Of a stretch of 54,471 nt of DNA, positions 1 to 36,144 are shown piece after piece. The notes beneath the pieces were generated by a model. It saw only the letters and a list, made by a program, of their open reading frames with translations, did not search any database and had not been told where the DNA came from. Each line of letters begins with the position of its first letter. Position 1 is the first letter of the stretch. The position numbers and the translations under genes are program-made. The stretch is taken from positions 1-54,471 of the IMG/VR virus record IMGVR_UViG_3300029319_007471; one strand, given 5' to 3'. The DNA is from a virus (lineage: Duplodnaviria; Caudoviricetes).

Positions 1-1388
1 ATTATAGCATTTGATGTATCACCTGTGCTTTTTATTAATATACCCTCATCCCCACTATCGGTGTGAATGTGGAGATTGTTATTTGGATTATTTGTGCCGA
101 TACCCACGTCACCAGTGAATGAACTTACTCCTGTTCCACCAGTAACAATTGAACCAAAAGAACCAGTTGAAGTTAGTGAACCACTTACCCCTCCTTCAGG
201 TGTAATTGATAATGAGGAACCCGTAGCTTCTATAGAGCCAGTAAATCTATGATTGTCGTCTAATGTATCACCAAACTTATTAGAACCGCTAGCAAACACC
301 ACACTAGCTGATGTAAATTCCGTATGAAATTCTCTTGCGAAAATAGAGCCTGATGTTGATATGTCACCTGTGGCTGTAATCGTGGTCGCTGATAAATTGG
401 TAGCAGTTAAAGTAGCTCCGCTAAAAGTTAAATCTGAATCTTCGGATAGTAATCCATTTGTTCCGTAGATAGCAACCCTACCTGATGTTTGATTGTCAGC
501 GGTCAATGTATTTGCTCTGAATCCATGCGCACCGATATCTAAATTTCCCCCAGCGGTCAGAGATGTTATGCCATCAATTGTTCCTCCATCGATATCAAAA
601 TTACTTCCCTCAATCTCTACAGAACCAGCGGTTAATTTACCACCCAATGTAAAGGCGCCGATGTTTGTCGAATTCACAGTAGTTGATACAACGTTACCAA
701 AAGATGCGGTGGATATTAATGAACTCGTTATATCACCAATCGCTTCTATGCTCGAACCGCTACCAACTATTTTGACCGTTCCGAAAGAACCTGTTGAGGT
801 AATTGAACCACTAATATTTGGAGCATTTTCAACCGTGGAACCACTAATCAAAGCGTTTGCCACAGGCCCTAAAGTGCCCTCCAATATCCCATTAAGGTGG
901 GTAGCATTTACACTACCAAAAGAACCAGTTGAAATTAATGAGCCAGATACATCTCCAACAAAATCTAAGGATGAGCCTGAATCATTTAACGTTAATCTTC
1001 CAAACGAAGCGGTTGATGCGTAAGGTGAATTAATATCCGTAAAATAACTTAACTTAGAGGATGAAATCTGAGCGCTATCGGCTATGTGAATATTTTCTAT
1101 CGAATTTGTTCTTATAAATTGTGATTCACCTGTGATTATACCATAAAATTTTGTATTAGCATCCGGCGCCTCACTAAAAACTATTCGTGAACCACTCATC
1201 GTATAGGCTTCATTGGCGTGTTGTAATACACCACCTAAAGTTATCAAAACATTAGCGGCGTCAGGTTGTTGCTCTGTTGCACCAACACTACAGGTGAATT
1301 CTGTTTGACTACCATCAAAAGATTGAGAAATCTCATCCATCAATGCGAATTGTCCACTATTCGTTGGTGTTCTACCTATATATGGCAT
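1..1388 (-). CDS. Partial Ser/Gly/Thr-rich virion fibre protein; C-terminal part runs off the left edge; missing from the ORF track
   Basis: ATG at 1388 after an AGGAGA RBS. Frame MPYIGRTPTNSGQFALMDEISQSFDGSQTEF...VLITLGGVLQH...YTMSGSRIVFSEAP... is open to the window edge. Shares STGSFG, LDIGAHGFRANTLTAD and AREFHTEF...HRFTGSIE modules with the 1600-aa neighbour; contains a GDVGIGT fibre motif. Confidence 0.85.
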   Translation of the reverse strand, partial: MPYIGRTPTNSGQFALMDEISQSFDGSQTEFTCSVGATEQQPDAANVLITLGGVLQHANEAYTMSGSRIVFSEAPDANTKFYGIITGESQFIRTNSIENIHIADSAQISSSKLSYFTDINSPYASTASFGRLTLNDSGSSLDFVGDVSGSLISTGSFGSVNATHLNGILEGTLGPVANALISGSTVENAPNISGSITSTGSFGTVKIVGSGSSIEAIGDITSSLISTASFGNVVSTTVNSTNIGAFTLGGKLTAGSVEIEGSNFDIDGGTIDGITSLTAGGNLDIGAHGFRANTLTADNQTSGRVAIYGTNGLLSEDSDLTFSGATLTATNLSATTITATGDISTSGSIFAREFHTEFTSASVVFASGSNKFGDTLDDNHRFTGSIEATGSSLSITPEGGVSGSLTSTGSFGSIVTGGTGVSSFTGDVGIGTNNPNNNLHIHTDSGDEGILIKSTGDTSNAI

Positions 1389-4300
1389 TTAAATAATCTC
1401 CTTATCCTAAAGCTATTGCTAATGCGGTCGCATCATCAACGGTTGCGAAACCTGAGCCAGTAAACGAACCTGAAAATGACCCACTTGCTGATGATAAATA
1501 TAAACCACCTACAATTTCGTTATTTCCCTGAGAATCCACTTTTAAACTAGCGGATGTAATTGTTAAACTACCCGTTGATTCGATTGAGCCAGTAAATCTA
1601 TGTATATCATCTTGCGTATCACCTAATTTTGTGCTACCACTGGCAAAAATAATTGATGCACTTACAAATTCTGTGTGGAATTCTCTGGCTGTGATTGAAC
1701 CTGATGTCGAAATATTGCCACCGACCTCTAAGTTACCTGTTACATCTAAATCTGTAAAGGCTAGTGTCCCTTGCACTTTATCAGCAACCACCAATGAACC
1801 AAATGAACCTGTTGAAGTTATCGAGCCACTTACGTTTCCAGCCTGAATTGTGGTCGATGATATATTTGTAGCGGTTAATGTCGCTCCGCTAAATGTTAAA
1901 TCTGAATCCTCTGATAGTAATCCGTTGCTACCATATATTGCTACACGTCCAGAAGTCTGATTATCGGCGGTGAGAGTATTTGCTCTAAATCCATGTGCGC
2001 CAATATCTAAATTTCCTCCAGCAGTTAAGGTTACGATATTACTCAACGTACCACCAACGGCGTTAACATTTGTTACGTTTAGAGTTCCAAATGAAGCTGT
2101 TGAAATAAGTGAGCTACTAACATCTCCTATCAACTCTAAAGTTGAACCGCTACCATTTATTTTTACGTTACCAAATGAACCAGTCGATAGTAATGAACCA
2201 CTAACGTTGGCTGCGTTCACAACCGCCGAACCACTAATCAATGTATTTAACGCACTACCTAAAGTTACCAAACCAGTTGCTGAGGTTATTGAATTTTGTG
2301 TGGCGGTTTGTATGGTTCCAAATAAATCTGTGCTTGTAACTTTTCCAAATGAGCCAGTTGAAATTAGTGAGCTAGTTAGATTACCAACTATCTCTAACGC
2401 TTTTGAACCCGAATCATTGATAATCGCTCTTCCGAATGAACCTGTTGAGGATATTGAACCACTTATCTTAGTTGCGCTAATATTTGCTAGAATGTCACCA
2501 TCATCTTTTACAATGACATCGCCACCATCAGCATTTAATTCTATATCTCCAGCCACATCAACAGTCAAATCACCTGTGCTTAAATCTATTTCGGTTCCGT
2601 CTATCGTAATATTATCTATGGTGACTCCACCATCAAACTTAGCCGATGGTGCTTCGAAATCGACGCTTGAAGTTATTGTCGTTCCTATGTGTCTGTATTT
2701 GATGTTTGCTACGCTTCCTCCGTCACCAAATAAAATACCTGACCCATCTATATCTGAACTATTTGTGCTTCCGCTTGACACCGTTATGGTCGCCGCCTGA
2801 ACATCCAATCCAGCGACCGTATTGTTTGTTGTTGTACCGACAACAGTTAAGTTACCTGCGATAGTTACATCACTACCTGAGAAAATTGTTTCCTCAACCT
2901 TAACCCTAGCATTAGTTGAGACAATCTGAAAATCATTAGATGCGTGGTCAGCTGTTAAATTACCACTTATTGTTTGACTACCATTTACATCTAAATTACC
3001 ATCAACAATTACCCCACTCAAAGTTCCAAAATTACCTCTACCAAACGATGCGCTTGATAATGATGAGCCAGTTATATGACCTATCATTTCTATAGCTGAT
3101 GCTGAATTGATTAATATCAATTTACCAAAAGAGCCAGTTGATGTTAAGGAACCGCTCACATCAGCAGCGTTCACAACCGCTGAACCACTAATTAAGGTAT
3201 TAAGTGAACTTCCTAAAGTGACTAAACCAGTAGCGGATGTAATGGAATTCTGAGCTGCTGTTTTTATTGTTCCATATACTTCCGTACTATTAATGTTTGT
3301 GGCGTTTACTGCGCCAAATGAAGCCGATGATATTAAGGAACTAGATACATTTCCAATCATCTCAATCGCTGGTAATGAACTCGAACCAGCTAAAATTATT
3401 CTACCAAAAGAACCAGTTGATGTTAGTGAACCACTAACTTTTGTGGACGATATGTTTAATAGTGAATCACCATCATCCTTTATATTTACGTCTCCTCCAT
3501 CAGCATTTATCTCAACATCACCATCGACATCTATTGTTAAATTGCCTGAGGATAAATCTATTTCGGTTCCATCTATTGTGATATTATCAATCGTTACCCC
3601 ACCATCTGCGTCTAATGAACCAACTGATACCGCGCCTGGAGTGACAATCGAACCAAAGGATGCCGTTGATGTTAGTGAACCACTAACTCCCCCTACAGGT
3701 GTAACCGATAATAAAGAGCCTGTAACTTCTATCGAACCAGTAAATCTGTGAACATCATCCTGACTATCACCAAATTTATTACTACCACTAGCGAAAACAA
3801 CACTAGCGGATGTGAACTCTGTATGAAACTCCCTTGCAAAAACAGAGCCAGATGTCGAAATATCTCCTGTGGCATTTATCGTTGTGGTCGTTAAAGTTGT
3901 ACTAACTAAATCTGTAGCTGTGACATCCGTTGCGTTTACATTTGTTGTGTTGAGTGTTCCAAAAGATGCGCTTGATATTAACGAACTTGAAACATCTCCA
4001 ATTAATTCTAAGCTTGAACCACTTCCATTAATTTTAACATTTCCGAATGAGCCAGTAGAAATGAGTGAACCACTTATGTTTCCTGAATTTATATTGGTAG
4101 CCGTTAAAGTATTTCCTGAAAATGATAAATCACTATCCTCTGTTAATAATCCATTACTACCATAGATAGCAACTCTTCCAGAGGTTTGTGCATCAGCAGT
4201 TAAAGTATTCGCTCTAAATCCATGTGCTCCAATATCTAAATCACCACCAGCCGTCAATGTTGTAATGTTTGTAAGTTCACCTCCAGCAGCGTTGACGTTT

Positions 4301-5930
4301 GTGACATTAACCGACCCAAATGATGCGGTTGAAATCAAAGAGCTAGATATATTACCGATAGCCTCAATGCTTGAACCGCTACCTAATAAATTTACAGTTC
4401 CAAATGAACCTGTTGATGTTAGAGAACCACTTACGTTGGCGGCGTTGACCACCGCTGAACCACTAATGAGAGCATTTAAATCACTACCTAAGGTAATCAA
4501 ACCTGTGGCTGATGTTATAGAATTTTGAGTAGCAGTTTTTACTGTTCCATAAAGTTCAGTAGCGTTAACGTTAGTAACGTTTGCTGCGCCAAATGAAGCG
4601 CTTGATATTAATGAACTACTTACGTTTCCAATCATTTCTATCGCAGAAGCTGAACCCACTAAGTTAAGTTTACCAAAAGAACCTGTAGAGGTTAAGGAAC
4701 CACTAACATTAGCTGCGTTTACAACCGCCGAACCGCTTATTAAAGCATTTAAAGAACTTCCTAAAGTTACCAAACCTGTGGCTGATGTTATAGAATTTTG
4801 TGCGGCGGTTTTTATCGTTCCATAAAGTTCGGTAGCGTTAACGTTAGTAACGTTTGCTGCACCAAATGAAGCGGTGGAAATCAACGAACTACTCACATCA
4901 CCTATTAATTCTAAAGTTGAACCACTACCATTAATTTTTACATTTCCGAATGAACCAGTCGATAGTAATGAACCACTAACTTTTGTTGAGGATACGTTTA
5001 ATAATACAACGTCATCATCCTTAACATCTACACTACCACCATCAGCGTTCAACTCAATATTACCATCCACATCAATGGTTAGATTACCGCTACTTAAATC
5101 TATTTCAGTCCCATCAATTGTTATATTATCAATCGTAACACCACCATCAGCATCTAAACTTGTTGCTGTGGTCGCCCCTAATGTCGTAGCACCTAATGTG
5201 GATTGACCTGGTACAACTAATGAACCAAATGAGGAGGTTGATATTAACGAACCACTAACCCCACCACCGACAAATTTAACAAAACTGGCGCTTAACTCAC
5301 CTCTAAATGAACCACTAATATCACTAGCTAACTGTGCTGAACTACTAACTAATGTTCTTAATCCACTCTCATCTTGCCCTTGCGAATTTTGACCTGTATG
5401 GATAGCCCAACCCATAAATTGGTGACTTGAACATTGATAATAAATTATTTGTGGACTATCTTTGTCAATCTTTAAAGTGATTACATTTCCAGCGACCGAT
5501 ACGTGACTGCTTGGGTCATATTGTGTTGTTTTAGCAGCATCAAAGTAAAATCTTATTGGATGAGAGGAGGCCCCACTATAATCAAATTTATAATAACCCT
5601 CAGTTAAATATAGGAAAGGAGTTTCAACCCCATCAATAACATATCCATTACCTGAACCGCTATCATAGTATGGATGGTTTGTTGTTTTGGATGCGGCTAA
5701 TGCAGTAAATGTATGAGCACTACCTGGCGCTATGACTGGTCCCTCTGATGCTCTAGCTAAGTAATTAAACCCTTTAACTGGCTCTCTACTTAACTCAAAA
5801 CTGCCTGAACTCTCTATTGAGCCTGTAAATCTATGAACATCATCTTGGGTATCACCAAATTGTGTCGAACCGCTTGAAAATATTATTGATGAATTTACAA
5901 ACTCTGTTCTAAATTCTCTAGCTATTATAG
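230..5930 (-). repeat. Interspersed protein-module repeats shared by the two fibre genes
   Basis: Approximate copies. Module A (AREFxTEF...GDxxDDxHRFTGSIE): 230-345, 1575-1690, 3725-3840, 5810-5925. Module B (DGGVTIDNITIDGTEIDLS...NADGG): 2500-2635, 3470-3610, 5010-5150. Module C (TAxQNSITSATGLxTLGS...VSGSLxSTGSFG): 2175-2310, 3130-3265, 4400-4540, 4675-4815. Module D (LTAGGxLDIGAHGFRANTLTAD...EDSDL): 415-560, 1880-2030, 4115-4260. Confidence 0.9.
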
Positions 5931-6204
5931 ACCCGCTGGTTTCTATATTGCCAGATACTTGTAAATTACCTGTGGCTCCTATGTCCCCAACTACTCTCAG
6001 GCTTTCACCATTTAATTGGGTGGTTCCAATACCAACTCCACCATCGGCATAAATCGTGCTTAAAGAAGATGTTCCAACTGAATCTATGGCAGAGCCAGAG
6101 TCTACTAAAGTTAATCTACCAAAAGAGGCAGTAGATGTTATAGAGCCAGTTACATTACCTACTTTTAAACTACCTGTTAATTGTTTACCTTTGATAATAG
6201 CCAT
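1402..6204 (-). CDS. 1600-aa modular Ser/Gly/Thr-rich virion fibre or appendage protein
   Basis: Many S[TS][GA]SFG units and four larger repeated modules; C-terminal DDATALAIALG; downstream of the neck genes. Confidence 0.8.
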   Translation of the reverse strand: MAIIKGKQLTGSLKVGNVTGSITSTASFGRLTLVDSGSAIDSVGTSSLSTIYADGGVGIGTTQLNGESLRVVGDIGATGNLQVSGNIETSGSIIAREFRTEFVNSSIIFSSGSTQFGDTQDDVHRFTGSIESSGSFELSREPVKGFNYLARASEGPVIAPGSAHTFTALAASKTTNHPYYDSGSGNGYVIDGVETPFLYLTEGYYKFDYSGASSHPIRFYFDAAKTTQYDPSSHVSVAGNVITLKIDKDSPQIIYYQCSSHQFMGWAIHTGQNSQGQDESGLRTLVSSSAQLASDISGSFRGELSASFVKFVGGGVSGSLISTSSFGSLVVPGQSTLGATTLGATTATSLDADGGVTIDNITIDGTEIDLSSGNLTIDVDGNIELNADGGSVDVKDDDVVLLNVSSTKVSGSLLSTGSFGNVKINGSGSTLELIGDVSSSLISTASFGAANVTNVNATELYGTIKTAAQNSITSATGLVTLGSSLNALISGSAVVNAANVSGSLTSTGSFGKLNLVGSASAIEMIGNVSSSLISSASFGAANVTNVNATELYGTVKTATQNSITSATGLITLGSDLNALISGSAVVNAANVSGSLTSTGSFGTVNLLGSGSSIEAIGNISSSLISTASFGSVNVTNVNAAGGELTNITTLTAGGDLDIGAHGFRANTLTADAQTSGRVAIYGSNGLLTEDSDLSFSGNTLTATNINSGNISGSLISTGSFGNVKINGSGSSLELIGDVSSSLISSASFGTLNTTNVNATDVTATDLVSTTLTTTTINATGDISTSGSVFAREFHTEFTSASVVFASGSNKFGDSQDDVHRFTGSIEVTGSLLSVTPVGGVSGSLTSTASFGSIVTPGAVSVGSLDADGGVTIDNITIDGTEIDLSSGNLTIDVDGDVEINADGGDVNIKDDGDSLLNISSTKVSGSLTSTGSFGRIILAGSSSLPAIEMIGNVSSSLISSASFGAVNATNINSTEVYGTIKTAAQNSITSATGLVTLGSSLNTLISGSAVVNAADVSGSLTSTGSFGKLILINSASAIEMIGHITGSSLSSASFGRGNFGTLSGVIVDGNLDVNGSQTISGNLTADHASNDFQIVSTNARVKVEETIFSGSDVTIAGNLTVVGTTTNNTVAGLDVQAATITVSSGSTNSSDIDGSGILFGDGGSVANIKYRHIGTTITSSVDFEAPSAKFDGGVTIDNITIDGTEIDLSTGDLTVDVAGDIELNADGGDVIVKDDGDILANISATKISGSISSTGSFGRAIINDSGSKALEIVGNLTSSLISTGSFGKVTSTDLFGTIQTATQNSITSATGLVTLGSALNTLISGSAVVNAANVSGSLLSTGSFGNVKINGSGSTLELIGDVSSSLISTASFGTLNVTNVNAVGGTLSNIVTLTAGGNLDIGAHGFRANTLTADNQTSGRVAIYGSNGLLSEDSDLTFSGATLTATNISSTTIQAGNVSGSITSTGSFGSLVVADKVQGTLAFTDLDVTGNLEVGGNISTSGSITAREFHTEFVSASIIFASGSTKLGDTQDDIHRFTGSIESTGSLTITSASLKVDSQGNNEIVGGLYLSSASGSFSGSFTGSGFATVDDATALAIALG

Positions 6205-7209: not shown

Positions 7210-7764
7210 TTAACTACTCTCCAATTGAAATCTTATATTAACTCTGTCAGGTTCTCCAGTGCCAGATTGGGTTGGTATACCCTCAAATACTGAGCCTGTT
7301 ATCAACGTAATTCCCAATCCAAATTCATCTCCTAGTTGTCTTTTTCGTATTCTAACTTTTGTTTGACTCGAATCTATCTGAAAATCAGCACTTGAACTAT
7401 CGGTTTGGTCAATGTTTGAAATCTGACTAACACCATTAACATTGACTTTCACCGAACCATTTCTAATTCTAAAACCGCTAGGTATTGTTGGCGCGAATTG
7501 TTGGTAATAAATATTCGATAACTCAACTTCTGATAAAGTAAATGATTGAAACTTAGTATTGAATCTCTCATTACCACTTTGTTGATTTATTACATTATCA
7601 TCTTGTCTAGCTGAACCCAAATTAACATTATTAAGGGTAAAAGGTAGTTTCTCACTACCGCTATCTCTAAAATTTATTATGTCTCCATCAAATTTCGACT
7701 CACTTACAGGAGTCATAAACTTTCTAATTGAGCCTTTTAAACCCTCTAATGCCTGCCTAGCCAT
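7210..7764 (-). CDS. Hypothetical structural protein
   Basis: 184-aa ORF in the structural operon; GSVKVNVNGVSQ resembles the C-terminal domain of the gp15-like neighbour (GSLDLQVNG). Confidence 0.55.
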   Translation of the reverse strand: MARQALEGLKGSIRKFMTPVSESKFDGDIINFRDSGSEKLPFTLNNVNLGSARQDDNVINQQSGNERFNTKFQSFTLSEVELSNIYYQQFAPTIPSGFRIRNGSVKVNVNGVSQISNIDQTDSSSADFQIDSSQTKVRIRKRQLGDEFGLGITLITGSVFEGIPTQSGTGEPDRVNIRFQLESS

Positions 7765-17494: not shown

Positions 17495-17503
17495 TTTTTC
17501 TTC

Positions 17504-23998: not shown

Positions 23999-24006
23999 TT
24001 TATCTC

Positions 24007-26518: not shown

Positions 26519-26520
26519 CT

Positions 26521-29566: not shown

Positions 29567-30268
29567 TTATTTTCGTTCAAATTCATATTCAAAAAAGTTG
29601 ATATCTTTCTTAAACATCTTAGCAATAAATTCTTGGCTTTCATCATCATAATAATCTGAATAATGTTTATGAGACGATTTGTTGGCTGATGGTAATTGTG
29701 GGATTGGTTTTAGATTCAACTCACTAAACATATTATTCCAATCCTCATTCAAATTTTCAAATCTTAAAATTTTATTTACCAATAGATTACCTTTTAAATC
29801 ACAAACAACATCAAGTTGATTTATAAATTCAATATTAGCTCTAAGAAAGTTAACGTTAAATTTAGTTTCTTTTAAAAAAGCGCCACTAGCCATCTCAAAG
29901 TAAATTTCATTGGAATCAACATTTTTTATACCAGGATCCATTATCCATCTTTTAAAACCCCAAACTTTACCGTCTGGCCCAAACGATTTATCAACTCCTA
30001 AATTATTCATATATAAATCTTTTTGTTGTTTTCTGAAGTGATATAAAGAAACCATTCTGTCCCACGGATTTCTGACCACCGTAAATTTAGTGTAAGAGTT
30101 AAAAATTCTTGGGTCTGTGTATTTTTGTATATCTATTGCAAGATTTGTGGTTTTTTTAAAGACCTTTGGGTGATATTTGGTATCTAAACCTAAAATTCTT
30201 CTAACGCTAACACCCGCATTTTTAGGTATGTGAAAGAAAATTAGCGGATATTTGAGACTTTCATTCAT
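29567..30268 (-). CDS. Sulfotransferase family 2
   Basis: PAPS-binding motifs FFHIPKNAGVSV and FTVVRNPWDRMVSLY; RFENL, YSDYYD. Confidence 0.9.
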   Translation of the reverse strand: MNESLKYPLIFFHIPKNAGVSVRRILGLDTKYHPKVFKKTTNLAIDIQKYTDPRIFNSYTKFTVVRNPWDRMVSLYHFRKQQKDLYMNNLGVDKSFGPDGKVWGFKRWIMDPGIKNVDSNEIYFEMASGAFLKETKFNVNFLRANIEFINQLDVVCDLKGNLLVNKILRFENLNEDWNNMFSELNLKPIPQLPSANKSSHKHYSDYYDDESQEFIAKMFKKDINFFEYEFERK

Positions 30269-31187
30269 TTATTTTTCCTTTTATAAATTTATTTACTTCC
30301 TCTCTATAATGTTTTTGTGCGACAACTCTAAATTTTTGTTTGAATTCATCACTATTGGTTAAATCAGCTATGTATGGTAGATACGGATTTAAATCCCTAT
30401 ATTTTCTATTCTCACAGACTAACATATTATCTAAAATATATTGATTAATATCGTAACCTGATTTTGACATAATACCAGCACATTCAAAAATAAATGTATC
30501 GTCTAATCCATAGGAGCCAAATGAATCTGGTATGTCAATGTACTTTAACAAATTTGAGCTAAACAAATTAAACCAACCACCACCAAACTTAAAGTCATTT
30601 AATTTTTTTATCTTTACTTCACTTAAATAGTTGTAAACCTCAGAATCTAAGCCGTAAGGGTCATACTTCAACCATATTTTTGATTCGATGCCCATAGGTA
30701 TGTATCTATCATTTGAAATGATATTCCAACCATCATCCCATAGCCTTAAAATTTGCGAGTTTAGAATATAATATTCGTCCTTTATATTATCTAAGGCTCT
30801 AAACATATAAGCTAAATTAAATTGTGAGAAAAAGACATCAGTATCTAAATACATAAAATTTTTCGGATTATATTCTCTTATGCTATTTCTTCTTTTGTCG
30901 TTTATACCCAAACATCTATTACTTTCACCATCATTTATCTCAAAAATATTTTTGTATGTCCAATCGGATTTCGATTCCATAACTTTATACTTTTCAACAA
31001 AGAAATCCTTTGGTAATTTGCTAGCGTTCCAATCCGTATAATAATCTGATAAATTTAAGGTAAAATCTAATACAACTTTGTCGTTTTTTTCTAAATAATG
31101 ACTAGATATCTTTAATTGATTTACTATTCTTTCTAAGTCATCTATTTCACGCGGTAAACAATGTAATATTATATGAATATCATTCAT
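30261..31187 (-). CDS. Putative GT-A glycosyltransferase
   Basis: FMYLDTDV (DxD), GGGWFNLFS, YGLDDTF. Confidence 0.55.
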   Translation of the reverse strand: MNDIHIILHCLPREIDDLERIVNQLKISSHYLEKNDKVVLDFTLNLSDYYTDWNASKLPKDFFVEKYKVMESKSDWTYKNIFEINDGESNRCLGINDKRRNSIREYNPKNFMYLDTDVFFSQFNLAYMFRALDNIKDEYYILNSQILRLWDDGWNIISNDRYIPMGIESKIWLKYDPYGLDSEVYNYLSEVKIKKLNDFKFGGGWFNLFSSNLLKYIDIPDSFGSYGLDDTFIFECAGIMSKSGYDINQYILDNMLVCENRKYRDLNPYLPYIADLTNSDEFKQKFRVVAQKHYREEVNKFIKGKINE

Positions 31188-31795
31188 TTAAGTATCGTTG
31201 GTTTAAAGTTATCTTTTAAAAACTCCCAACATTGTCTTTCTGCTGATATTTTGTGGTGGCCATCTTTAAATTTATCGTAAAAATACTCTGTAGTCCTATC
31301 ATCTGTTTTTGAAAAGTAATGTCCAAATTTATATTTGTCATTGTAACCATCAAAACCAACTAAAGTTACATCCATATCGAAACATTTTAATATATGATAA
31401 GTACCTATTAAGCCAGTTGAAGGCCAACCACCCCCAAACTCAGCTTCTCTTTTTAAATTTGTTTCTACACTGGTTGGAATAAACACTAACTTTTCTGGAT
31501 ATTTATCATATTGATTTTTAATTCGTTGAACCTCTGACTCCCATTTAAAAGCTGGTGTGCCTATTAAAATGTAAGCAGTATTTTCAAATAATTCATCGGA
31601 CATATATTCATCAGTCATAAATCCATCATGCACAATCAATATATCGGTTCTACTACCAACATTTTTTTCGTATCCGTCAATACCTTCAAAAAAACCCCTA
31701 TTCATACGACAAACTAAATCAAATTTATCAATTTGTTTCCCGTATTCATTATCTAACATTGATGAACCGTTTCCAACTATAACCAATTTTTCCAT
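31184..31795 (-). CDS. GT29-like sialyltransferase
   Basis: Sialylmotif L-like VIVGNG...GKQIDKFDLVCRMN...VGSRT; motif S-like PSTG...GF; HY; H-x4-E. Confidence 0.8.
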   Translation of the reverse strand: MEKLVIVGNGSSMLDNEYGKQIDKFDLVCRMNRGFFEGIDGYEKNVGSRTDILIVHDGFMTDEYMSDELFENTAYILIGTPAFKWESEVQRIKNQYDKYPEKLVFIPTSVETNLKREAEFGGGWPSTGLIGTYHILKCFDMDVTLVGFDGYNDKYKFGHYFSKTDDRTTEYFYDKFKDGHHKISAERQCWEFLKDNFKPTILK

Positions 31796-31799: not shown

Positions 31800-32432
31800 T
31801 TAACCTTTTTGTATGTTTATACTTTGATATAAGGAATTTTGTTTTTCTTGCTTTTTTATATTTTTTGGATGATATAAAGATAACTCTTCATTTGGTGGAA
31901 GATGAGCGTATGTCTTACAGCCAGTTATTCTTTCATGCACTTTACCTGCCCATCTTATATTAGGGTCATTTTTAAAAATTCTACTCTGATAATCTGGATA
32001 ATTAACCCAACCTTTTTCTGTTATTCTCCATCCCCATTTGACACAATGTTCTTCGGTTATTCCATCAACCGTATTAACTCTTGGAACCCAAATCATTTCA
32101 ACACCCTCATTTACCTCTATGATGTCTTTTAACTGATTTAGTAAATTTTTATGTGGATACTCATCAGCATCAATGTGGAAGATATAATCACCCGTACATT
32201 TTTCTATCACAAAGTTTTTTTGTTCAGCGAAGTCACCCTCAAACTTTTTATCATAAACTTTAATGTTCTTCGATTCTTTATGGTCATTTAATAAAGCACC
32301 AACTGGCACATCCATTCCATCCCTAACAATTATTATTTCATCTCCCTCATCAATATTTTTTTTCAATATTTTTAGTAATTCGAATAATTCTTCTGATTCA
32401 TCTTTTACTGTTATTCCATAACTAATCTTCAT
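31800..32432 (-). CDS. Glycosyltransferase family 2
   Basis: DFAEQKN, YIFHIDADE, YPDYQSRIF, VHERI. Confidence 0.88.
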   Translation of the reverse strand: MKISYGITVKDESEELFELLKILKKNIDEGDEIIIVRDGMDVPVGALLNDHKESKNIKVYDKKFEGDFAEQKNFVIEKCTGDYIFHIDADEYPHKNLLNQLKDIIEVNEGVEMIWVPRVNTVDGITEEHCVKWGWRITEKGWVNYPDYQSRIFKNDPNIRWAGKVHERITGCKTYAHLPPNEELSLYHPKNIKKQEKQNSLYQSINIQKG

Positions 32433-32904
32433 CTTGCTCCTCTACTTTTTTCTTTTCTTCAGGCGGTAATACATCCGCTCCATAATCATAATCAGCTAAT
32501 TGTAAGCCCGTAACCCTATCCAATCTAAATGTCCTATATGAATCCATTACTTTTGGTATTTTACTTAATTTATTTTTATAAAACGCTCTTATCGCACCTC
32601 TAACCAATGGTAGTGATAAGGTTCTAACTTTAGTCTCCGGGTCTACGGATGTCTGTGGGTCTTGTATAAAATTAATTAATCTTTTTAAATATTGAGGTGC
32701 TAGGCTATTTAAATCAATTGAATGTATATATCTTTGACTTCTAGCACCAGCTAATGGCCAAACATTTAAAACTAAAGAAATCCTTAATCCTGCGGAGCTT
32801 TTACCTTTATACCTAAAGTAAATTATGTCACCATTTCGGATTTGATTAATTTTGATGATTTTGAATTTTTTTATTTTTCTACGATGTAGATTGTAGAATT
32901 GCAT
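32422..32904 (-). CDS. Hypothetical protein (possibly a distant T4 gp2 DNA-end-protector-like fold)
   Basis: GDIIYFRY...IHSIDLN...YRTF pattern; weak resemblance only. Confidence 0.35.
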   Translation of the reverse strand: MQFYNLHRRKIKKFKIIKINQIRNGDIIYFRYKGKSSAGLRISLVLNVWPLAGARSQRYIHSIDLNSLAPQYLKRLINFIQDPQTSVDPETKVRTLSLPLVRGAIRAFYKNKLSKIPKVMDSYRTFRLDRVTGLQLADYDYGADVLPPEEKKKVEEQDED

Positions 32905-32906
32905 AT

Positions 32907-33365
32907 TTATCTCTTTATATCCTGTGCTATACCCATATCTTTACAAGCTTCCAAAAATGAATATTGTTCATAGGATTTGGCATTTTCAACATCCAATCTT
33001 TTTTCGTGCCCATCATACTTTTCTCTCATATTAGGTGGAATATCGATAACTTCAGCATATTTCCAAACCCACATTTTCATATTACCCTCAGGAAATATTA
33101 TACCCTTTGAACCCATATTAACAACTGAAGGAAACCAAATAATATTTCTTTTGGTATCTTTAAATTGTAAGTCCTGCACTAATTTTGGAGAACTCTTAAT
33201 ATAATTATCAAATTCTTTACTATCCAATGTAAATCTACTATCACTCATAAAACCACAGTTGAAACAAAGATAAGAGCTTGATTCAATTTTACTATCTAAA
33301 AGCACGGATTCTTCAAAACATAAATCTTCATCAAAACAAACAGGACATTGAATTACTCTCTCCAT
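32907..33365 (-). CDS. Zn-ribbon hypothetical protein
   Basis: CPVC...CFNCG. Confidence 0.6.
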   Translation of the reverse strand: MERVIQCPVCFDEDLCFEESVLLDSKIESSSYLCFNCGFMSDSRFTLDSKEFDNYIKSSPKLVQDLQFKDTKRNIIWFPSVVNMGSKGIIFPEGNMKMWVWKYAEVIDIPPNMREKYDGHEKRLDVENAKSYEQYSFLEACKDMGIAQDIKR

Positions 33366-33366
33366 A

Positions 33367-34662
33367 TTAACCTTTCTTTAGTTTTGGTAATTTTAAATCC
33401 ATTTGTTGTGGTTGTTCATCAAACTTTGGTAGATGCTTTGTCAATATTTTTTCAAACTCTTTCGTCATTGCGTTTAATGAAAATTGACTTTTGTTGATTT
33501 TACCTTGCTTCTTTCCTTTGAAAGAATAGTTTTTAAAATTAGACCTAACATCTTTTAAAACCTTAGCAGCCTGAGTATAATTAATTGTAGCCCATTGTGC
33601 TCCCTCAACGTAAATATTTTCAGGAAATGAATCTTTGTGAACATCGGTCATTTCTACTGGTAATAATATTGATAGATTTTTATTCAAAAAATCAACATGC
33701 CCACTCCAACCTGTAGCAATAACTGGTTTTTCAGCCATAGTGAATTCTAATAAAGGTCTTCCAAATCCCTCACCATGCGTGAATGAAATTAAAGATTTAA
33801 TTTTATGATGATTATACAATTCATTCATTTGTATATCAGTTAACGTACCGTGCAATAAATAAATGTTAGGTAGTGTTTTTTTGAAACTTACTGTGTGTCT
33901 TATCTCCCTAATTTTTTTGAAAATAGCTTCTCTATCCAAAACAGATGGTAATGCTCCGCTAGTTTTCAAAACTAATGCTGGTGGATTTTTTGTATCTTTA
34001 AAAGCAGTTAGAAAAGTTTTTATCATCATATAACAATCTTTTCTATCTTGCCCATCAACACCCTGCAACCAATGTCCAACAAATAAAAAAGAAAAATTTT
34101 CTTTTATGTTAGATAGTTCAGATTTAATAGATTCATCCGATACTTTTAATTTTTTAAAAATATCTGTATCGGCTCCTTCAAATAAAACCTCTATTGGTTT
34201 TTCAGATTTAATTTCACCTACTTTGTTTTTATCTTTATCAAAAGAATCAAAAACAACTGAATTAAAAATATTTTTAGCGTGCACTGAGGGAACGATATTC
34301 ATATCCATACGATTTAAACCCTGTATCCAATCAACAGGACAAGCAGTAGTTTCTATACCTGCGGTTATTCCAATATTATATTTGCCGATAGGTTGAAACT
34401 CATTAGGAACTACAATGTGAATATGTATATCTGGTTGCCTGTCCAAGTTCGGTTGTGATAAACACAAATCTAATATCTTTTTATCATTTGGGTCATTTTT
34501 ATCTAATGCGTCCCAAGAAGTATTACCCCATCTAACTGGAAATATTTTAATATCAAATTTATCTATATCAATCAATGAACGGACTATATCTCTTGCATGC
34601 GCACCATAACCAGAACGAGTCTGGACTGGCGCTGTAACTAATAACAATGGTTTATAACTCAT
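33367..34662 (-). CDS. GT-B (GT4-like) glycosyltransferase
   Basis: SGYG, FLFVGHW, RKD, HGEGFGRPLLE, PVIATGWSGHVDF. Confidence 0.88.
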   Translation of the reverse strand: MSYKPLLLVTAPVQTRSGYGAHARDIVRSLIDIDKFDIKIFPVRWGNTSWDALDKNDPNDKKILDLCLSQPNLDRQPDIHIHIVVPNEFQPIGKYNIGITAGIETTACPVDWIQGLNRMDMNIVPSVHAKNIFNSVVFDSFDKDKNKVGEIKSEKPIEVLFEGADTDIFKKLKVSDESIKSELSNIKENFSFLFVGHWLQGVDGQDRKDCYMMIKTFLTAFKDTKNPPALVLKTSGALPSVLDREAIFKKIREIRHTVSFKKTLPNIYLLHGTLTDIQMNELYNHHKIKSLISFTHGEGFGRPLLEFTMAEKPVIATGWSGHVDFLNKNLSILLPVEMTDVHKDSFPENIYVEGAQWATINYTQAAKVLKDVRSNFKNYSFKGKKQGKINKSQFSLNAMTKEFEKILTKHLPKFDEQPQQMDLKLPKLKKG

Positions 34663-34671
34663 ACTCTACCT

Positions 34672-36144
34672 CTATACTTTATGTAATTTAAAAGGTTTTT
34701 TAGGTTTCCATTTTTCAAAAGCGGTATCCATATGACTGATAAAGTTTTTACACATATTTTTAGCAGTCATCATAGCATCATCGCTCAATACAAAATCTCT
34801 ACCCAATCCACCACATCTTTCTCTTTCATCTCTACCTGCATCATACCACTCTTTAATTCTATCAGCAGCGTCATCGAATCTACATCTATCATCAAAAATA
34901 TAAGGTGTTGGTACAGAACCAACCAAAGCTCTATTAGACGGCCAAACAGGTTTTACCCATTGACCGTGTGTTAGATTTTCGTTATTAGCCCATTTTTTAT
35001 CATCATGTAATGATTTGATTTTATCATAGTCCTTAGCAGTCAAAAGTTCTTCTGTATAACCACTATTATCATTGTTTGGTTTTCTTAATCGAAACCCACA
35101 TTGGTCTTGTAATCCACCTGTAACATTAACAATAATAGGAGTTCCACTCATCAATGATTCACAAGTTGCTAATCCAAATCCCTCATTTGACGCGATATTA
35201 ATAGTGACATCAGCTATGTTATAAAGAAAATTCATATGTTTATTATCTTCTTTATTGACTGAGTAATGAACATTACAATCTGACGCTACGGCCTCTACCA
35301 CAGCTGGAATATCAGTTCCATTTTCATCAACTGGTGCCGTATGAAATAATAAGGCACATTTTTTAGCTCTCTCCTTAGGTAACATATCACAAAAAGTTTT
35401 AAATGCTAATACAACATCACCAGGCATTTTTCTTCTAATATTTCTATTATTGTAGTAAAGAACAAAATCGTACTGATTATTTTCGAGTATCCTATTTTTA
35501 AATTTGTTAAGTTCATTATACTCTGAATGTAATTCATCTATAGGATAGAAAAAGTCTTCATTGATACCATGTGGTATGTAAGTTACTTGCCAATCCTCAG
35601 GTGGATTAGTCTTCCAAACATCCTTTACAATAGCTACACTTTGTTTAGAAATATTCATAATTAAATCACAAGATTCATAATACCATTCGTTATATTTAGG
35701 AGCTGGCCAGTCGTCCCAAATATTGTAATAAAATATAGGAATATTTTGTCTTATCTCATGCTCAATTTGATATAACCATACCCAAAATCGTGGGTCGGTA
35801 TAAATCATTATAGCATCAGGCTTTTCTACTTGTATTAAGTTTCTGACTAATTCCTGTGAACCATAACCATTTACTGCATATATTTTTAAATCAGCATCTG
35901 CTATACCTGTATCTTTTCGTACAGAATCATTCATATTAATTACTTTACCATTTTCAGGATGTTTTATAGCTCCGCCAATTTGAACCCAATCATATCTATC
36001 AAGCGTACCTAATACAAACTCTCTTGACATCGTTCCTACGCCGGAGGACATTCTTAAGTCATCGGCGAGCAACATAATCTTTTTCTTTTTTCTAGTTTTA
36101 ACCTGTGATGTGGTTTTCAACTTAGGTAATTTTATTTCGTTCAT
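34672..36144 (-). CDS. GT-B (GT4-like) glycosyltransferase
   Basis: IPHGI, NRNIRRK, NEGFGLATCES, GTPIIVNVTGGLQDQ. Confidence 0.88.
   Translation of the reverse strand: MNEIKLPKLKTTSQVKTRKKKKIMLLADDLRMSSGVGTMSREFVLGTLDRYDWVQIGGAIKHPENGKVINMNDSVRKDTGIADADLKIYAVNGYGSQELVRNLIQVEKPDAIMIYTDPRFWVWLYQIEHEIRQNIPIFYYNIWDDWPAPKYNEWYYESCDLIMNISKQSVAIVKDVWKTNPPEDWQVTYIPHGINEDFFYPIDELHSEYNELNKFKNRILENNQYDFVLYYNNRNIRRKMPGDVVLAFKTFCDMLPKERAKKCALLFHTAPVDENGTDIPAVVEAVASDCNVHYSVNKEDNKHMNFLYNIADVTINIASNEGFGLATCESLMSGTPIIVNVTGGLQDQCGFRLRKPNNDNSGYTEELLTAKDYDKIKSLHDDKKWANNENLTHGQWVKPVWPSNRALVGSVPTPYIFDDRCRFDDAADRIKEWYDAGRDERERCGGLGRDFVLSDDAMMTAKNMCKNFISHMDTAFEKWKPKKPFKLHKV

What the first reader, a model, noticed from the sequence alone, without database searches (positions are those of the whole stretch)
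1..36144. Candidate phage virion O-glycosylation system: [S/T]-[G/A/S]-S sequon plus a 20-kb glycan island
Seen: SGS/TGS/SAS/TAS/SSS tripeptides saturate both fibre proteins and the 331-aa protein, and also occur in core virion proteins. I count five in gp13 and a cluster in the gp15 C-terminal extension. All seven copies I count in gp23 lie in the variable segment between LIFYLDFKY and IPEVDIA. The 834-aa polymerase and the clamp have about one each. Just upstream lie about nine glycosyltransferase-like genes plus sugar-nucleotide enzymes. Established: that gp23 segment corresponds to the surface-exposed insertion region of T4-type capsids; Maf proteins attach CMP-nonulosonates to flagellin Ser/Thr; virion glycosylation is known in some actinobacteriophages and giant viruses. 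Inference: the tripeptide is a sequon and the island builds an acidic, possibly sulfated, glycan coat on the particle.
Basis: partly seen in the sequence, partly recalled or inferred. Interest (0 to 1): 0.88.

Follow-up and report, generated by a model that had tools for sequence, protein, structure and literature searches.

The report
Serine-glycine-serine motif on phage virion proteins
A marine T4-like phage carries a large sugar-building gene island, and its particle proteins are unusually rich in the tripeptide Ser/Thr-Gly-Ser, which may mark sugar attachment sites, though no data here show any sugar attached.

Summary
The window is a lone 54-kb contig of a "Far-T4" myovirus, related to Flavobacterium phage immuto, Microcystis phage Mel-JY01 and RM378.

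**Motif**
- An unbiased scan of all tripeptides in the 7 non-fibre virion proteins ranks SGS (13 seen, 2.4 expected) and TGS (9 vs 1.55) first.
- [ST]-G-S occurs 22 times vs 3.9 expected in non-fibre virion proteins and 67 vs 13 in the two fibres. In the 51 non-structural proteins it occurs 3 times vs 4.5 expected.
- The enrichment recurs in a complete 216-kb relative and, as S-G-[ST], in immuto. It is absent from T4, Mel-JY01 and a glycosyltransferase (GT)-rich cyanophage.

**Island**
- The island (14.9-36.1 kb) is real. It has 8 Pfam-supported GT-like genes plus Gmd, a KdsB-type cytidylyltransferase, a DAHP/KDO8P-synthase relative, an aminotransferase and a sulfotransferase.
- Four GTs are a lineage-wide conserved core flanking a swappable cassette.
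- No island protein looks like a multi-pass membrane protein.

**Verdict**
- Virion O-glycosylation at this motif is plausible (about 0.35) but unproven.
- In the fibres the motif sits inside a rigid 12-residue repeat, so a purely structural reading is nearly as likely.

The parts
3..1388 (-). Fibre protein, 462 aa seen; its C-terminal end runs off the window
   Evidence: PHROG tail fiber phrog_18673, E 1.3e-14. [ST][GAS]S 19 vs 6.9 expected. Holds 5 of the 25 fibre repeat units.
1402..6204 (-). Fibre protein, 1600 aa, built largely from the repeat G-[ND]-V-S-[GS]-S-L-x-S-T-[GA]-S-F-G
   Evidence: PHROG tail fiber phrog_30742. [ST][GAS]S 81 vs 27 expected. Motif spacings of 6 and 11 residues. 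Holds 20 of the 25 repeat units. No PDB sequence match.
6214..7209 (-). 331-aa virion-module protein following gp15; the densest non-fibre carrier of the motif
   Evidence: 7 [ST]GS. No Pfam or PHROG hit. Homologues in 20 of 80 loci total 106 vs 23 expected.
7210..7764 (-). 184-aa protein of the virion module
   Evidence: 2 [ST]GS. No family hit.
7766..9121 (-). gp15-like tail sheath stabiliser with a motif-rich C-terminal extension
   Evidence: Pfam T4-gp15_tss, E 7.6e-7, residues 55-184. 5 [ST]GS and 9 [ST][GAS]S, all at residues 330-432.
9121..9606 (-). 161-aa protein in the gp14 position; carries no motif
   Evidence: 0 motifs here. 0 vs 3.7 expected over 52 homologues.
9611..10762 (-). 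gp13-like head-tail adaptor
   Evidence: phrog_211, E 1.8e-13. 5 [ST]GS at residues 9, 89, 126, 133, 265. In the AF2 model four lie in loops or a hairpin and one in a strand.
10877..12499 (-). gp23 major capsid protein
   Evidence: Pfam Gp23, E 4.9e-80. 3 [ST]GS at residues 215, 233, 250, inside the segment 134-295 that does not align to T4 gp23. That domain is modelled at pLDDT 75-86.
12526..13623 (-). Acidic scaffold-like protein in the gp22 position; carries no [ST]GS
   Evidence: 0 [ST]GS. 5 vs 14 expected over 75 homologues.
13773..14315 (-). HNH-endonuclease-like protein at the junction of the island and the head genes
   Evidence: phrog_14736 and phrog_10822. Its homologue ends the island in G001, G006 and immuto.
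15915..16841 (-). NAD-dependent sugar epimerase/dehydratase; conserved right flank of the island
   Evidence: Pfam Epimerase, E 1.3e-40. Homologues at 59% identity in G001, 43% in immuto and 36% in G006.
16823..19871 (-). Variable cassette part 1: GT2 (223 aa), DAHP/KDO8P-synthase relative, short cytidylyltransferase, D-2-hydroxyacid dehydrogenase
   Evidence: Pfam. NCBIfam scores are below the equivalog cut-offs: DAHP synthase 260 vs 335, KDO8P synthase 91.6 vs 314. The first three genes are absent from G006, G001, immuto and Mel-JY01.
19846..21078 (-). GT2, 410 aa; one of the four conserved core glycosyltransferases
   Evidence: Pfam Glycos_transf_2, E 3e-14. Homologues in G006 (70%), G001 (39%), immuto (42%) and Mel-JY01 (26%).
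21080..24942 (-). DegT-type aminotransferase, 286-aa unknown, GDP-mannose 4,6-dehydratase, GT2 (311 aa)
   Evidence: Pfam. Gmd scores 435 bits against a cut-off of 415. This block is 74-80% identical in G006.
24939..26530 (-). MptE-like/DUF115 protein (262 aa) and a KdsB-type CMP-ulosonate cytidylyltransferase
   Evidence: PF01973 scores 39 bits against a cut-off of 34.6, covering profile positions 3-64 of 171. KdsB subfamily scores 266 against 255.
26521..29515 (-). HpaI/GarL-type aldolase, HAD phosphatase, LdpA-like Fe-S protein, second HpcH-like protein
   Evidence: Absent from the four relatives compared.
29567..31795 (-). Sulfotransferase (233 aa), 308-aa unknown, GT29 sialyltransferase-like protein (203 aa)
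   Evidence: Sulfotransfer_2, E 1.2e-16, and GT29, E 2.9e-17. The GT29-like protein aligns to ST3Gal-I (2wml), E 1.9e-8, with the VGN..RMN, PSTG and HY stretches visible.
31800..33365 (-). GT2 (210 aa, core) plus two small conserved proteins (160 and 152 aa)
   Evidence: Pfam. GT2-210 has homologues in all four relatives at 38-58% identity.
33367..36144 (-). Pair of GT-B glycosyltransferases (431 aa and 490 aa); conserved left flank of the island, next to the PD-(D/E)XK nuclease and the replication genes
   Evidence: Pfam GT1/GT4 matches. Among 50,697 phage records they are found in only 5 and 7 records, all of this lineage. Each matched 8000 proteins (cluster representatives at 90% identity), the scoring cap, in the metagenome protein set. 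Best PDB match of the 490-aa protein is chlorovirus B736L (3oy2), E 2.8e-10.

Best explanation
The window comes from a Far-T4-type marine myovirus. It holds a 21-kb locus that builds glycans in the cytoplasm.

**The locus.** Four glycosyltransferases are conserved across the lineage: GT4-like 490 aa, GT1-like 431 aa, GT2 210 aa and GT2 410 aa. They bracket a swappable cassette. In this phage the cassette can supply:
- a CMP-activated 2-keto-3-deoxy (Kdo-like) acid sugar;
- a GDP-6-deoxy, probably 4-amino, hexose;
- two CMP-sugar-type transferases (GT29-like and DUF115-like);
- a sulfotransferase.

**Proposed mechanism.** These soluble enzymes act late in infection on virion surface proteins. 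Ser/Thr in the motif hydrophobic-[S/T]-G-S, which sits in loops and beta-turns, would be the acceptor. The targets would be the fibres, the 331-aa neck-associated protein, gp13, the gp15 extension and the gp23 outer domain.

**Shown**
- The motif enrichment, its restriction to virion proteins and its restriction to the lineage.
- The gene content and the core-plus-cassette layout of the island.

**Inferred**
- That the glycan goes on the virion.
- That the tripeptide is the sequon.
- Which enzyme would start the chain.
For: 1. In an unbiased scan of all tripeptides in the 7 non-fibre virion proteins, SGS (13 vs 2.4) and TGS (9 vs 1.55) rank first. Permuted forms (GSS, SSG, GSG, SGG, SGT) are not enriched.
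2. [ST]GS occurs 22 vs 3.9 times in non-fibre virion proteins and 3 vs 4.5 in the 51 non-structural proteins. The 22 sites use 20 different 9-base codon strings, so selection acts on the protein. The Poisson tail is 2e-10.
3. With a hydrophobic residue in front, the count is 11 vs 1.1.
4. Replication. In the complete relative G001, the structural blocks again rank SGS (41 vs 11) and TGS (31 vs 11) first. Its 90-205 kb region shows nothing (18 vs 18.5). In immuto, SGT (24 vs 7.6) and SGS (19 vs 5.2) rank first.
5. Controls:
   - 26 T4 structural proteins: 1 vs 8.1.
   - Cyanophage S-SCSM2R, with 13 glycosyltransferases according to PMC12801897: 11 vs 6.6 summed over 10 proteins, no S/T/G tripeptide among the top 8.
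   - Mel-JY01: none. Its GT4-490 orthologue is split across two frames.
6. Across 80 related loci the motif sits at many different alignment columns: 29 in gp23, nearly all in window residues 127-275, and 24 in gp13. It is absent from the gp14-position protein (0 vs 3.7) and rare in the scaffold (5 vs 14).
7. In the AF2 models the sites lie at strand ends, hairpin turns and low-confidence loops.
8. No island protein in the window, G006 or G001 has two or more hydrophobic segments. So no flippase, polymerase, ligase or membrane-embedded initiating transferase is encoded there.
9. In G001 the element ATATTTATA lies 8-80 nt upstream of a start codon in 15 of its 26 copies, although that zone is 8% of the genome. 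It precedes sheath, tube and fibre genes. It also precedes the small ORF heading the GT4-490 gene, an island-internal gene, and a GT7-lectin fusion beside the fibre genes.
10. The best solved homologue of GT4-490 is a chlorovirus glycosyltransferase.
Against: - There is no direct evidence of any glycan on any protein.
- In the two fibres, most motif copies come from 25 units of one strict repeat (V-S-G-S-L-x-S-T-G-S-F-G). A structural Ser/Thr-Gly turn could explain them.
- gp23 on its own is only marginal in the window.
- Immuto has an intact four-glycosyltransferase core, but its gp23 (1 vs 0.6) and gp13 (0 vs 0.6) are not enriched.
- RM378 and Mel-JY01 show weak or no enrichment. So the core alone does not predict the motif.
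- Only 2 of 38 related records searched hold both gp23 and the island. Covariation rests on a handful of genomes.
- The distinct-sites measure puts SGS first of 242 tripeptides in gp23, but only narrowly: 55 against 50 for the next.
- The promoter-like element was not found before island genes in the window itself.
- No gene is a recognised protein O-glycosyltransferase. The Maf-like match is partial.
- The published reading of similar islands in marine T4-like phages is modification of the host surface or of DNA (passages of PMC12801897 and PMC12619734).
Confidence: 0.35

Rival explanations
1. The tripeptide is a structural signature, not a modification site. It would be a favoured Ser/Thr-Gly-Ser beta-turn or Ser/Thr ladder in the fibre repeat and in the beta-rich surface modules that this clade has spread among its virion proteins. 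The island would then serve another target, most likely host envelope glycans made on host lipid carriers. That could block superinfection or keep progeny from sticking to debris.
For: - The 25 fibre units follow a strict 12-residue consensus with invariant S, F and G positions.
- Motifs sit at strand-turn junctions with hydrophobic neighbours.
- The gp15 extension and the 331-aa protein hit the same ORF in several loci, so part of the spread is shared ancestry.
- Immuto keeps the glycosyltransferase core but has no motif in gp23 or gp13.
- Host-surface modification is the usual reading of such islands (PMC12801897 passages).
Against: - A generic turn motif should also appear in T4 virion proteins (1 vs 8.1) and in this phage's own non-structural proteins (3 vs 4.5).
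- gp13 and the gp23 outer domain are unrelated to the fibres, yet they carry the motif at shifting positions.
- The island encodes no multi-pass membrane protein.
Confidence: 0.33
2. The island does glycosylate the virion, but the [ST]-G-S tripeptide is not the acceptor. Sites would lie elsewhere, for example on other Ser/Thr of the fibres, and the motif would be a separate structural feature.
For: - The points on island layout, soluble enzymes and the promoter-like element hold without the motif.
- By recall, known cytoplasmic O-glycosylation systems such as Maf on flagellin have no strict sequon.
Against: It leaves the virion-specific, lineage-specific 5- to 10-fold enrichment unexplained.
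Confidence: 0.1
3. The motif is a site for another modification or interaction. Examples are phosphorylation, acylation, or docking of a decoration protein. This would be unrelated to the island.
For: The enrichment pattern shows selection for the motif on exposed loops of virion proteins but says nothing about the chemistry.
Against: The family searches of the window proteins I scanned turned up no kinase or acyltransferase candidate. The largest enzyme set in the window makes glycans.
Confidence: 0.1
4. The conserved glycosyltransferases modify phage DNA, as in T4 glucosylation or the glycan hypermodification reported by Pyle et al. The cassette would diversify the DNA-linked glycan.
For: - The GT4-490/GT1-431 pair always sits next to a PD-(D/E)XK nuclease and the replication genes.
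- A SLOG-family gene is adjacent in the window.
- The phage invests in DNA modification: Mom and DUF1599.
- DNA glycosylation by phage glycosyltransferases is a published role (listing; passage of PMC12619734).
Against: - No thymidylate-synthase-family hydroxymethylase was found in the complete relative G001, in G006 or in the window (0 of 3).
- CMP-ulosonate transferases and a carbohydrate sulfotransferase are not known DNA-modifying tools (recalled).
- This reading does not explain the protein motif.
Confidence: 0.05

Closest known systems
Virion glycosylation of mycobacteriophages (Freeman et al. 2023). Seen only as a citation and a one-sentence description in PMC12619734 and PMC12801897; the paper is not held.
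   Same: Phage-encoded glycosyltransferases are proposed to decorate capsid and tail proteins made in the cytoplasm.
   Different: - There the glycans are described at the C-termini of capsid and tail tube subunits. Here the candidate sites are internal loops carrying a defined tripeptide.
- The host group, phage type and enzyme set differ, and the island is far larger.
- Nothing is experimentally shown here.
Capsid and fibril glycosylation of chloroviruses and giant viruses by virus-encoded cytoplasmic enzymes (biology recalled). B736L of chlorovirus NY-2A is the closest solved homologue.
   Same: - Soluble virus-encoded glycosyltransferases and sugar-nucleotide pathways.
- Clade-variable gene clusters.
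- Eukaryote-type enzyme families.
- GT4-490 matches 3oy2 at E 2.8e-10.
   Different: - Those are eukaryotic viruses.
- Chlorovirus glycans are N-linked at atypical sites (recalled).
- As I recall, the function of B736L itself is unproven.
Cell-wall/LPS gene islands of marine T4-like cyanophages (S-SCSM2R, S-SCSM1, P-SSM2); passages of PMC12801897 read.
   Same: Many glycosyltransferases together with KdsA/KdsB-type genes and epimerases in a marine T4-like genome.
   Different: - The gp23 lineage is different.
- The structural proteins of S-SCSM2R show no [ST]GS enrichment.
- The authors read those genes as modifying the host surface or DNA.
Flagellin O-glycosylation by Maf proteins using CMP-nonulosonates (recalled).
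   Same: Cytoplasmic transfer of a CMP-activated acid sugar to Ser/Thr of a secreted, self-assembling protein. A DUF115/MptE-like domain and a CMP-sugar synthetase are present.
   Different: - The protein here is 262 aa and matches only profile positions 3-64 of 171.
- There is no NeuB/PseI-type synthase above its cut-off.
- It has no PDB sequence match.
Heptosylation of AIDA-I/TibA-type autotransporter beta-helix repeats, and Ser-Gly xylosylation of eukaryotic proteoglycans (both recalled).
   Same: Ser in short turn motifs of repetitive beta-structure, or in Ser-Gly dipeptides, serves as acceptor for soluble transferases. Carbohydrate sulfotransferase and GT29 families occur here, and a GT7 family member occurs in G001.
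   Different: No homologue of the initiating enzymes (BAHT heptosyltransferase, xylosyltransferase) was found or specifically searched for. The likeness is one of working principle only.

Membership tests
Far-T4 / Immutovirus-like T4-type myoviruses | gp23-type major capsid protein closest to RM378, immuto and Mel-JY01, with a T4-like neck and replication module | tested here: met
   - Pfam Gp23, E 4.9e-80.
- 54-56% identity to immuto and Mel-JY01, 36% to RM378.
- gp15, gp13, clamp loader and PolB matches.
- Lineage name taken from PMC4360716 (listing; term search).
Phage virion glycosylation system (mycobacteriophage type) | Glycan shown on capsid or tail proteins by mass spectrometry | not testable with these tools
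   No proteomic data are available here.
Phage virion glycosylation system (mycobacteriophage type) | Glycosyltransferase genes placed within or beside the structural gene block | tested here: inconclusive
   The island abuts gp22/gp23 in the window and in G006. It lies about 50 kb from them in the complete relative G001, and apart from them in immuto and Mel-JY01.
Phage virion glycosylation system (mycobacteriophage type) | Modified residues at the C-termini of capsid and tail tube subunits, as described in the PMC12619734 passage | tested here: not met
   Candidate sites are internal: gp23 residues 215-252 of 540, and gp13 residues 9-267 of 383.
Maf flagellin glycosyltransferases | Full MAF_flag10/DUF115 (PF01973) domain within a large protein that has acceptor-binding flanks (size recalled) | tested here: not met
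   PF01973 scores 39 bits against a cut-off of 34.6 but covers only profile positions 3-64 of 171. The protein is 262 aa. No PDB match at E <= 1.
GT29 sialyltransferases | PF00777 above its cut-off, with the conserved donor-binding stretches (motif names recalled) | tested here: met
   63.4 bits against a cut-off of 23, covering profile positions 58-269 of 272. The alignment to ST3Gal-I shows the VGN..D.V.RMN, PSTG and HY stretches.
Kdo pathway (KdsA, KdsB, KdsC) | KdsB cytidylyltransferase | tested here: met
   NF009905 subfamily scores 266.3 against a cut-off of 255.
Kdo pathway (KdsA, KdsB, KdsC) | KdsA (KDO8P synthase) equivalog and KdsC-type phosphatase | tested here: not met
   - KDO8P_synth scores 91.6 against 314.
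- The protein scores better as a DAHP synthase (260 against 335), still below the cut-off.
- The HAD phosphatase scores 95 against 165 for the BT0820 family.
Surface polysaccharide (O-antigen/capsule) gene clusters | Membrane machinery: a flippase and polymerase or an ABC exporter, plus an initiating phosphoglycosyl transferase or a ligase | tested here: not met
   No island protein in the window, G006 or G001 has two or more 19-residue hydrophobic segments (Kyte-Doolittle mean >= 1.6). No such Pfam family was hit.
T4-type DNA glucosylation | A hydroxymethylase of the thymidylate synthase family (PF00303) supplying the acceptor base | tested here: not met
   0 of 3 records matched (window, G006, complete G001), while 10 of 14 control genomes matched. 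The TET/JBP search had a silent control and is uninformative.
Bacteroidota general O-glycosylation sequon D-[ST]-[AILVMT] (recalled) | Enrichment of that sequon in the target proteins | tested here: not met
   9 vs 9.5 expected in non-fibre virion proteins; 4 vs 13 in the fibres.

The most novel reading that the evidence does not exclude
An abundant clade of marine T4-like phages coats its particles with a proteoglycan-like layer. Soluble phage enzymes would start O-glycans on Ser/Thr of hydrophobic-[S/T]-G-[S/T] turn motifs, recalling the Ser-Gly acceptor sites of eukaryotic proteoglycans. A conserved four-glycosyltransferase core would extend them. A fast-swapping cassette would cap them with acidic, sometimes sulfated, sugars using eukaryote-type enzymes (GT29, Sulfotransfer_2, and GT7 in a relative). 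The cassette would then act as a serotype-like locus for the virion itself. It would tune particle charge, stickiness to marine gels or non-host cells, or recognition by grazers and host defences. The sequon would co-evolve with it: [ST]-G-S in this clade, S-G-[ST] in immuto.
Probability: 0.12. Interest if true: 0.9.

Novelty: new variant of a known kind. Interest (0 to 1): 0.66.

Why it matters
If the motif is a true acceptor site, it would be the first defined O-glycosylation sequon for a tailed phage. It would also be the first case in a T4-like phage of Gram-negative or marine hosts.

The lineage is very common. Each of the two core glycosyltransferases matched 8000 proteins (cluster representatives at 90% identity), the scoring cap, in the metagenome protein set.

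It would recast the glycan islands of marine phages. These are usually read as tools for remodelling the host surface. They might instead be loci that diversify the phage's own surface.

The idea is testable now. Flavobacterium phage immuto is in culture and shares both the four-glycosyltransferase core and a related motif.

Even if the sequon idea fails, the virion-specific, lineage-specific tripeptide enrichment is an unexplained regularity that deserves a structural explanation.

Tried and rejected
1. **Distinct-sites test against independent shuffles of each homologue.** Ill-formed, because shuffles scatter sites that real homologues share by descent. I replaced it with a ranking among real tripeptides, which gives only a narrow lead for SGS in gp23.

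2. **Depletion of the motif in non-structural proteins.** The first tally in G001 (12 vs 26) was biased, because I had picked proteins by their low counts. Binned by genome position it disappears (18 vs 18.5 at 90-205 kb; 2 vs 6.8 at 2-56 kb).

3. **T4 late promoter TATAAATA.** 3 copies vs 12.3 expected, so it is not used here.

4. **The G001 promoter-like element ATATTTATA in the window.** ATATTTAT occurs 15 times vs 14.6 expected. With up to one mismatch, 6 of 49 coding-strand copies lie in the upstream zone, which is 8% of the sequence. Looser variants gave nothing. The expression-timing argument therefore rests on the relative alone.

5. **Covariation across related contigs.** Only 2 of the 38 records searched hold both gp23 and GT4-490. 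Four of the 42 handles were not held.

6. **GtfA/GtfB-like pairing of the two GT-B enzymes.** Considered, then dropped. Both keep an EX7E-like stretch in alignments A3 and A4, so neither looks like a degenerate chaperone. No complex-prediction job was sent.

7. **AF2 models.** Overall confidence is low (mean pLDDT 60 and 66). I used only secondary structure and local confidence, made no solvent-exposure calculation, and ran no fold search.

8. **TET/JBP search.** The control was silent, so the result is uninformative.

9. **Literature.** Four searches found no paper on a sequon or on virion glycosylation in this lineage. PMC4360716 does not contain the words glycosyl, polysaccharide, lipopolysaccharide or sugar. 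Supplements were closed and I did not request them; they could hold virion proteomics for immuto or Mel-JY01.

10. **Other sequons.** D-[ST]-[AILVMT] and N-x-[ST] are not enriched in non-fibre virion proteins.

Full report
**What the window is.** The window is a stand-alone 54,471-base virus contig. Every gene of 80 codons or more lies on the minus strand.
- Reading along the minus strand from the right end come early-looking genes, then a replication block. That block holds PolB, a clamp-loader ATPase and A subunit, a PD-(D/E)XK nuclease, a Mom-family protein and a DruA homologue.
- Next come the glycan island (36,144 down to about 14,947), an HNH-endonuclease-like gene and an acidic scaffold-like protein.
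- Then come gp23 (Pfam E 4.9e-80), gp13-like, a gp14-position protein and gp15-like proteins, two proteins of 184 and 331 aa, and two fibre proteins.
- gp23 is 54-56% identical to that of Flavobacterium phage immuto and Microcystis phage Mel-JY01, and 36% to Rhodothermus phage RM378. This places the phage in the group called Far-T4 (PMC4360716; listing).
- IMG/VR holds at least 599 stretches that encode a relative of this gp23. I kept 80 loci.

**Checking the observation.**
- Whole-protein shuffles and block shuffles of 20 or 40 residues both leave an excess. Pooled over the seven non-fibre virion proteins it is 37 vs about 13.
SGS (13 vs 2.4) and TGS (9 vs 1.55) come out on top. SAS, TAS, SSS, TSS and the permuted forms do not stand out. 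The real motif is therefore [ST]-G-S.
- It occurs 22 times vs 3.9 expected in non-fibre virion proteins, 67 vs 13 in the fibres, and 3 vs 4.5 in the other 51 proteins.
- The 22 non-fibre sites use 20 different codon strings, so the cause is not a DNA word.
- A hydrophobic residue often precedes the motif: 11 vs 1.1 (context).
- Two known sequons, D-[ST]-[AILVMT] and N-x-[ST], are not enriched in the non-fibre virion proteins.

**The fibres are a special case.**
- Twenty-five units of one repeat, G-[ND]-V-S-[GS]-S-L-x-S-T-[GA]-S-F-G, account for most fibre copies.
- Within the unit the Ser, Thr, Phe and Gly positions are nearly invariant.
- These copies are not independent events. They could be purely structural.

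**Is the enrichment general?** No.
- T4's 26 structural proteins have 1 copy vs 8.1 expected, and no such tripeptide ranks high.
- Ten structural proteins of cyanophage S-SCSM2R show nothing. That phage carries 13 glycosyltransferases plus KdsA and KdsB according to PMC12801897 (passages; test).
- Within the lineage the picture is graded:
  - Across the 80 loci, gp23 totals 200 vs 59, gp13 193 vs 29.5, gp15 71 vs 23 and the 331-aa protein 106 vs 23.
  - The gp14-position protein has 0 vs 3.7 and the scaffold 5 vs 14.
  - These totals count shared ancestry many times over.
- The sites are spread over 29 alignment columns in gp23, almost all within window residues 127-275, and over 24 columns in gp13. 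Only one column is held by most sequences.
- Among real tripeptides, SGS has the most distinct sites per expectation in both alignments. In gp23 the lead is narrow.
- In the complete 216-kb relative G001, the unbiased scan of the structural blocks again puts SGS and TGS first (41 and 31 vs 11 each). The excess is confined to 56-90 kb (45 vs 17) and 205-217 kb (25 vs 5.4). The 90-205 kb region is at expectation.
- In immuto the top two tripeptides are SGT and SGS. They sit in fibre-like and neck-adjacent proteins, not in gp23 or gp13.
- Mel-JY01 shows no such tripeptide among its top-ranked ones. In the regions I scanned, Mel-JY01 totals 20 vs 12 and RM378 12 vs 4.4.

**Where the sites sit.**
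- gp23 aligns to T4 gp23 at residues 29-133 and 296-519. The segment between, which holds all the motif copies, does not align. From memory, it stands where T4's outer insertion domain stands.
- The AF2 model is weak overall (pLDDT 60). It gives this segment a beta-rich fold at pLDDT 75-86, with the three sites at a strand end, a tight hairpin and a loop before a strand.
- In gp13 (pLDDT 66), three sites lie in low-confidence loops, one in a hairpin loop and one in a strand.
- So the sites are turn and loop positions. That fits exposure, and it fits a turn-forming role equally well.

**The island.**
- Pfam and NCBIfam give:
  - four GT2 proteins;
  - a GT29 sialyltransferase-like protein that aligns to ST3Gal-I with the donor-binding stretches visible;
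  - an MptE-like/DUF115 protein (partial match);
  - two GT-B enzymes;
  - Gmd (above its cut-off);
  - a KdsB-type cytidylyltransferase (above its subfamily cut-off) and a second, short cytidylyltransferase;
  - a DAHP/KDO8P-synthase relative (below its cut-offs);
  - two HpcH-type aldolases and a HAD phosphatase;
  - an LdpA-like Fe-S protein;
  - a DegT aminotransferase, an epimerase, a 2-hydroxyacid dehydrogenase and a Sulfotransfer_2 protein.
- Two further proteins fall in virus-only clusters with glycosyltransferase leads only.

**The island is a lineage feature.**
- Compared with G006 (syntenic, gp23 78% identical), G001, immuto and Mel-JY01, the layout is constant. It runs: PD-(D/E)XK nuclease, GT4-like 490 aa, GT1-like 431 aa, small proteins, GT2 210 aa, a variable middle, (epimerase) GT2 410 aa. 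The epimerase is missing in Mel-JY01.
- An HNH endonuclease-like gene follows in the window, G006, G001 and immuto, but not in the Mel-JY01 stretch I compared.
- The middle runs from about 3 kb in Mel-JY01 to about 11 kb in this window and is mosaic even between the window and G006.
- Among 50,697 phage records the two GT-B enzymes occur only in this lineage (7 and 5 records).
- Each matched 8000 proteins (cluster representatives at 90% identity), the scoring cap, in the metagenome protein set.
- The island abuts the head genes in the window and G006. It lies about 50 kb from them in G001.

**What is the acceptor?**
- Three observations lean towards a soluble, late-made target:
  - No island protein in three genomes looks like a multi-pass membrane protein.
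  - In G001 the element ATATTTATA sits just upstream of start codons in 15 of its 26 copies. It marks sheath, tube and fibre genes. It also marks the small ORF heading the GT4-490 gene, an island-internal gene, and a GT7-lectin fusion among the fibre genes.
  - The closest solved relative of GT4-490 is a chlorovirus glycosyltransferase.
- Against DNA as the target, no thymidylate-synthase-type hydroxymethylase is present in the complete relative.
- One covariation point goes the predicted way. Mel-JY01 shows no motif enrichment, and its GT4-490 gene is split across two frames. This is one genome and could be a sequencing error.
- Against the sequon idea:
  - Immuto has the intact core but no motif in gp23 or gp13.
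  - The promoter-like element was not found in the window.
  - No gene belongs to a proven protein O-glycosyltransferase family.

**Verdict.**
I give it about one chance in three. A structural-motif reading combined with a different role for the island is nearly as likely.
- The four literature searches found no description of this motif or of virion glycosylation in this lineage. Supplements were closed, and the key mycobacteriophage paper is not held.

Noticed in passing
window 31184-31795 (-): A 203-aa GT29 (eukaryote-type sialyltransferase) homologue in a phage. It aligns to mammalian ST3Gal-I (2wml, E 1.9e-8) with the VGN..RMN, PSTG and HY stretches kept. A 34%-identical copy sits in G006.
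   Followed up: partly
window 40177-41016 (-) and 51380-51763 (-): A Mom-family protein (PF25680, E 5.8e-45) and a DUF1599 'nucleotide modification associated' protein. The phage probably modifies its DNA by a route unrelated to the island. G006 has two extra Mom-related ORFs.
   Followed up: no
window 48055-49248 (-): A 397-aa homologue of the Druantia defence protein DruA (PF14236, E 3.9e-24) encoded by a phage. It is 84% identical in G006 and 59% in G001.
   Followed up: no
window 26521-29515 (-): An LdpA-like Fe-S protein (NCBIfam CircClkLdpA, E 5e-43, below its cut-off) lies between two HpcH-type aldolases and a HAD phosphatase, inside a glycan island. This is an unusual set that may make a 2-keto-3-deoxy acid sugar by an aldolase route. 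It is absent from the four relatives compared.
   Followed up: no
window 13773-14315 (-); G001 at 140,730: An HNH-endonuclease-like gene marks the right end of the island in the window, G006, G001 and immuto. In the window and G006 the island is joined to the head genes at this point. In G001 it lies about 50 kb away. This suggests a rearrangement at a homing-endonuclease site.
   Followed up: partly
L082:5210-6790 (G001): A 527-aa fusion of a GT7 (beta-1,4-galactosyltransferase-type) domain with a Laminin_G_3/ConA-like lectin domain. It lies beside tail fibre genes and is preceded by the ATATTTATA element.
   Followed up: partly
G001 whole record (L082-L092): ATATTTATA (extended: ATATTTATAAT[AT]G) behaves like a late-promoter element. 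Of 26 plus-strand copies, 15 lie 8-80 nt before a start codon. For two reverse-type control words the figure is 2 of 25 and 2 of 28.
   Followed up: partly
L082:4029-5141 and L090:14020-15351 (G001): Two proteins preceded by the ATATTTATA element carry Hint/intein-type domains. One of them also has an AXH module and 3 [ST]GS vs 0.5 expected.
   Followed up: no
window 52835-52909 (-) and the 49,776-50,442 gap: A tRNA-Cys gene was called by ARAGORN. The 667-nt gap upstream of 49266-49775 holds a tRNA-like 3' end (a GGTTCGAATCC-type stretch) that ARAGORN did not call.
   Followed up: no
window upstream of 49775, 53513 and 53992 (-): Sigma-70-like TTGAC-N17-TATATT promoters stand before three small genes at the right end, by eye. 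This suggests they are early genes read by the host polymerase.
   Followed up: no
window 12526-13623 (-): The scaffold-like protein carries runs of an acidic repeat (E-G-M-H-D-D-E-E type). This produced several of the top-ranked tripeptides in the unbiased scan.
   Followed up: no
window 52229-52819 (-) and 50443-51450 (-): A peptide deformylase with a C-terminal SEC-C motif, and an IMPDH/GMP-reductase-domain protein. Both look like auxiliary metabolic genes.
   Followed up: no
L094:15998-17489 (Mel-JY01): The GT4-490 orthologue is split between two reading frames and is annotated as two glycosyltransferase genes.
   Followed up: partly
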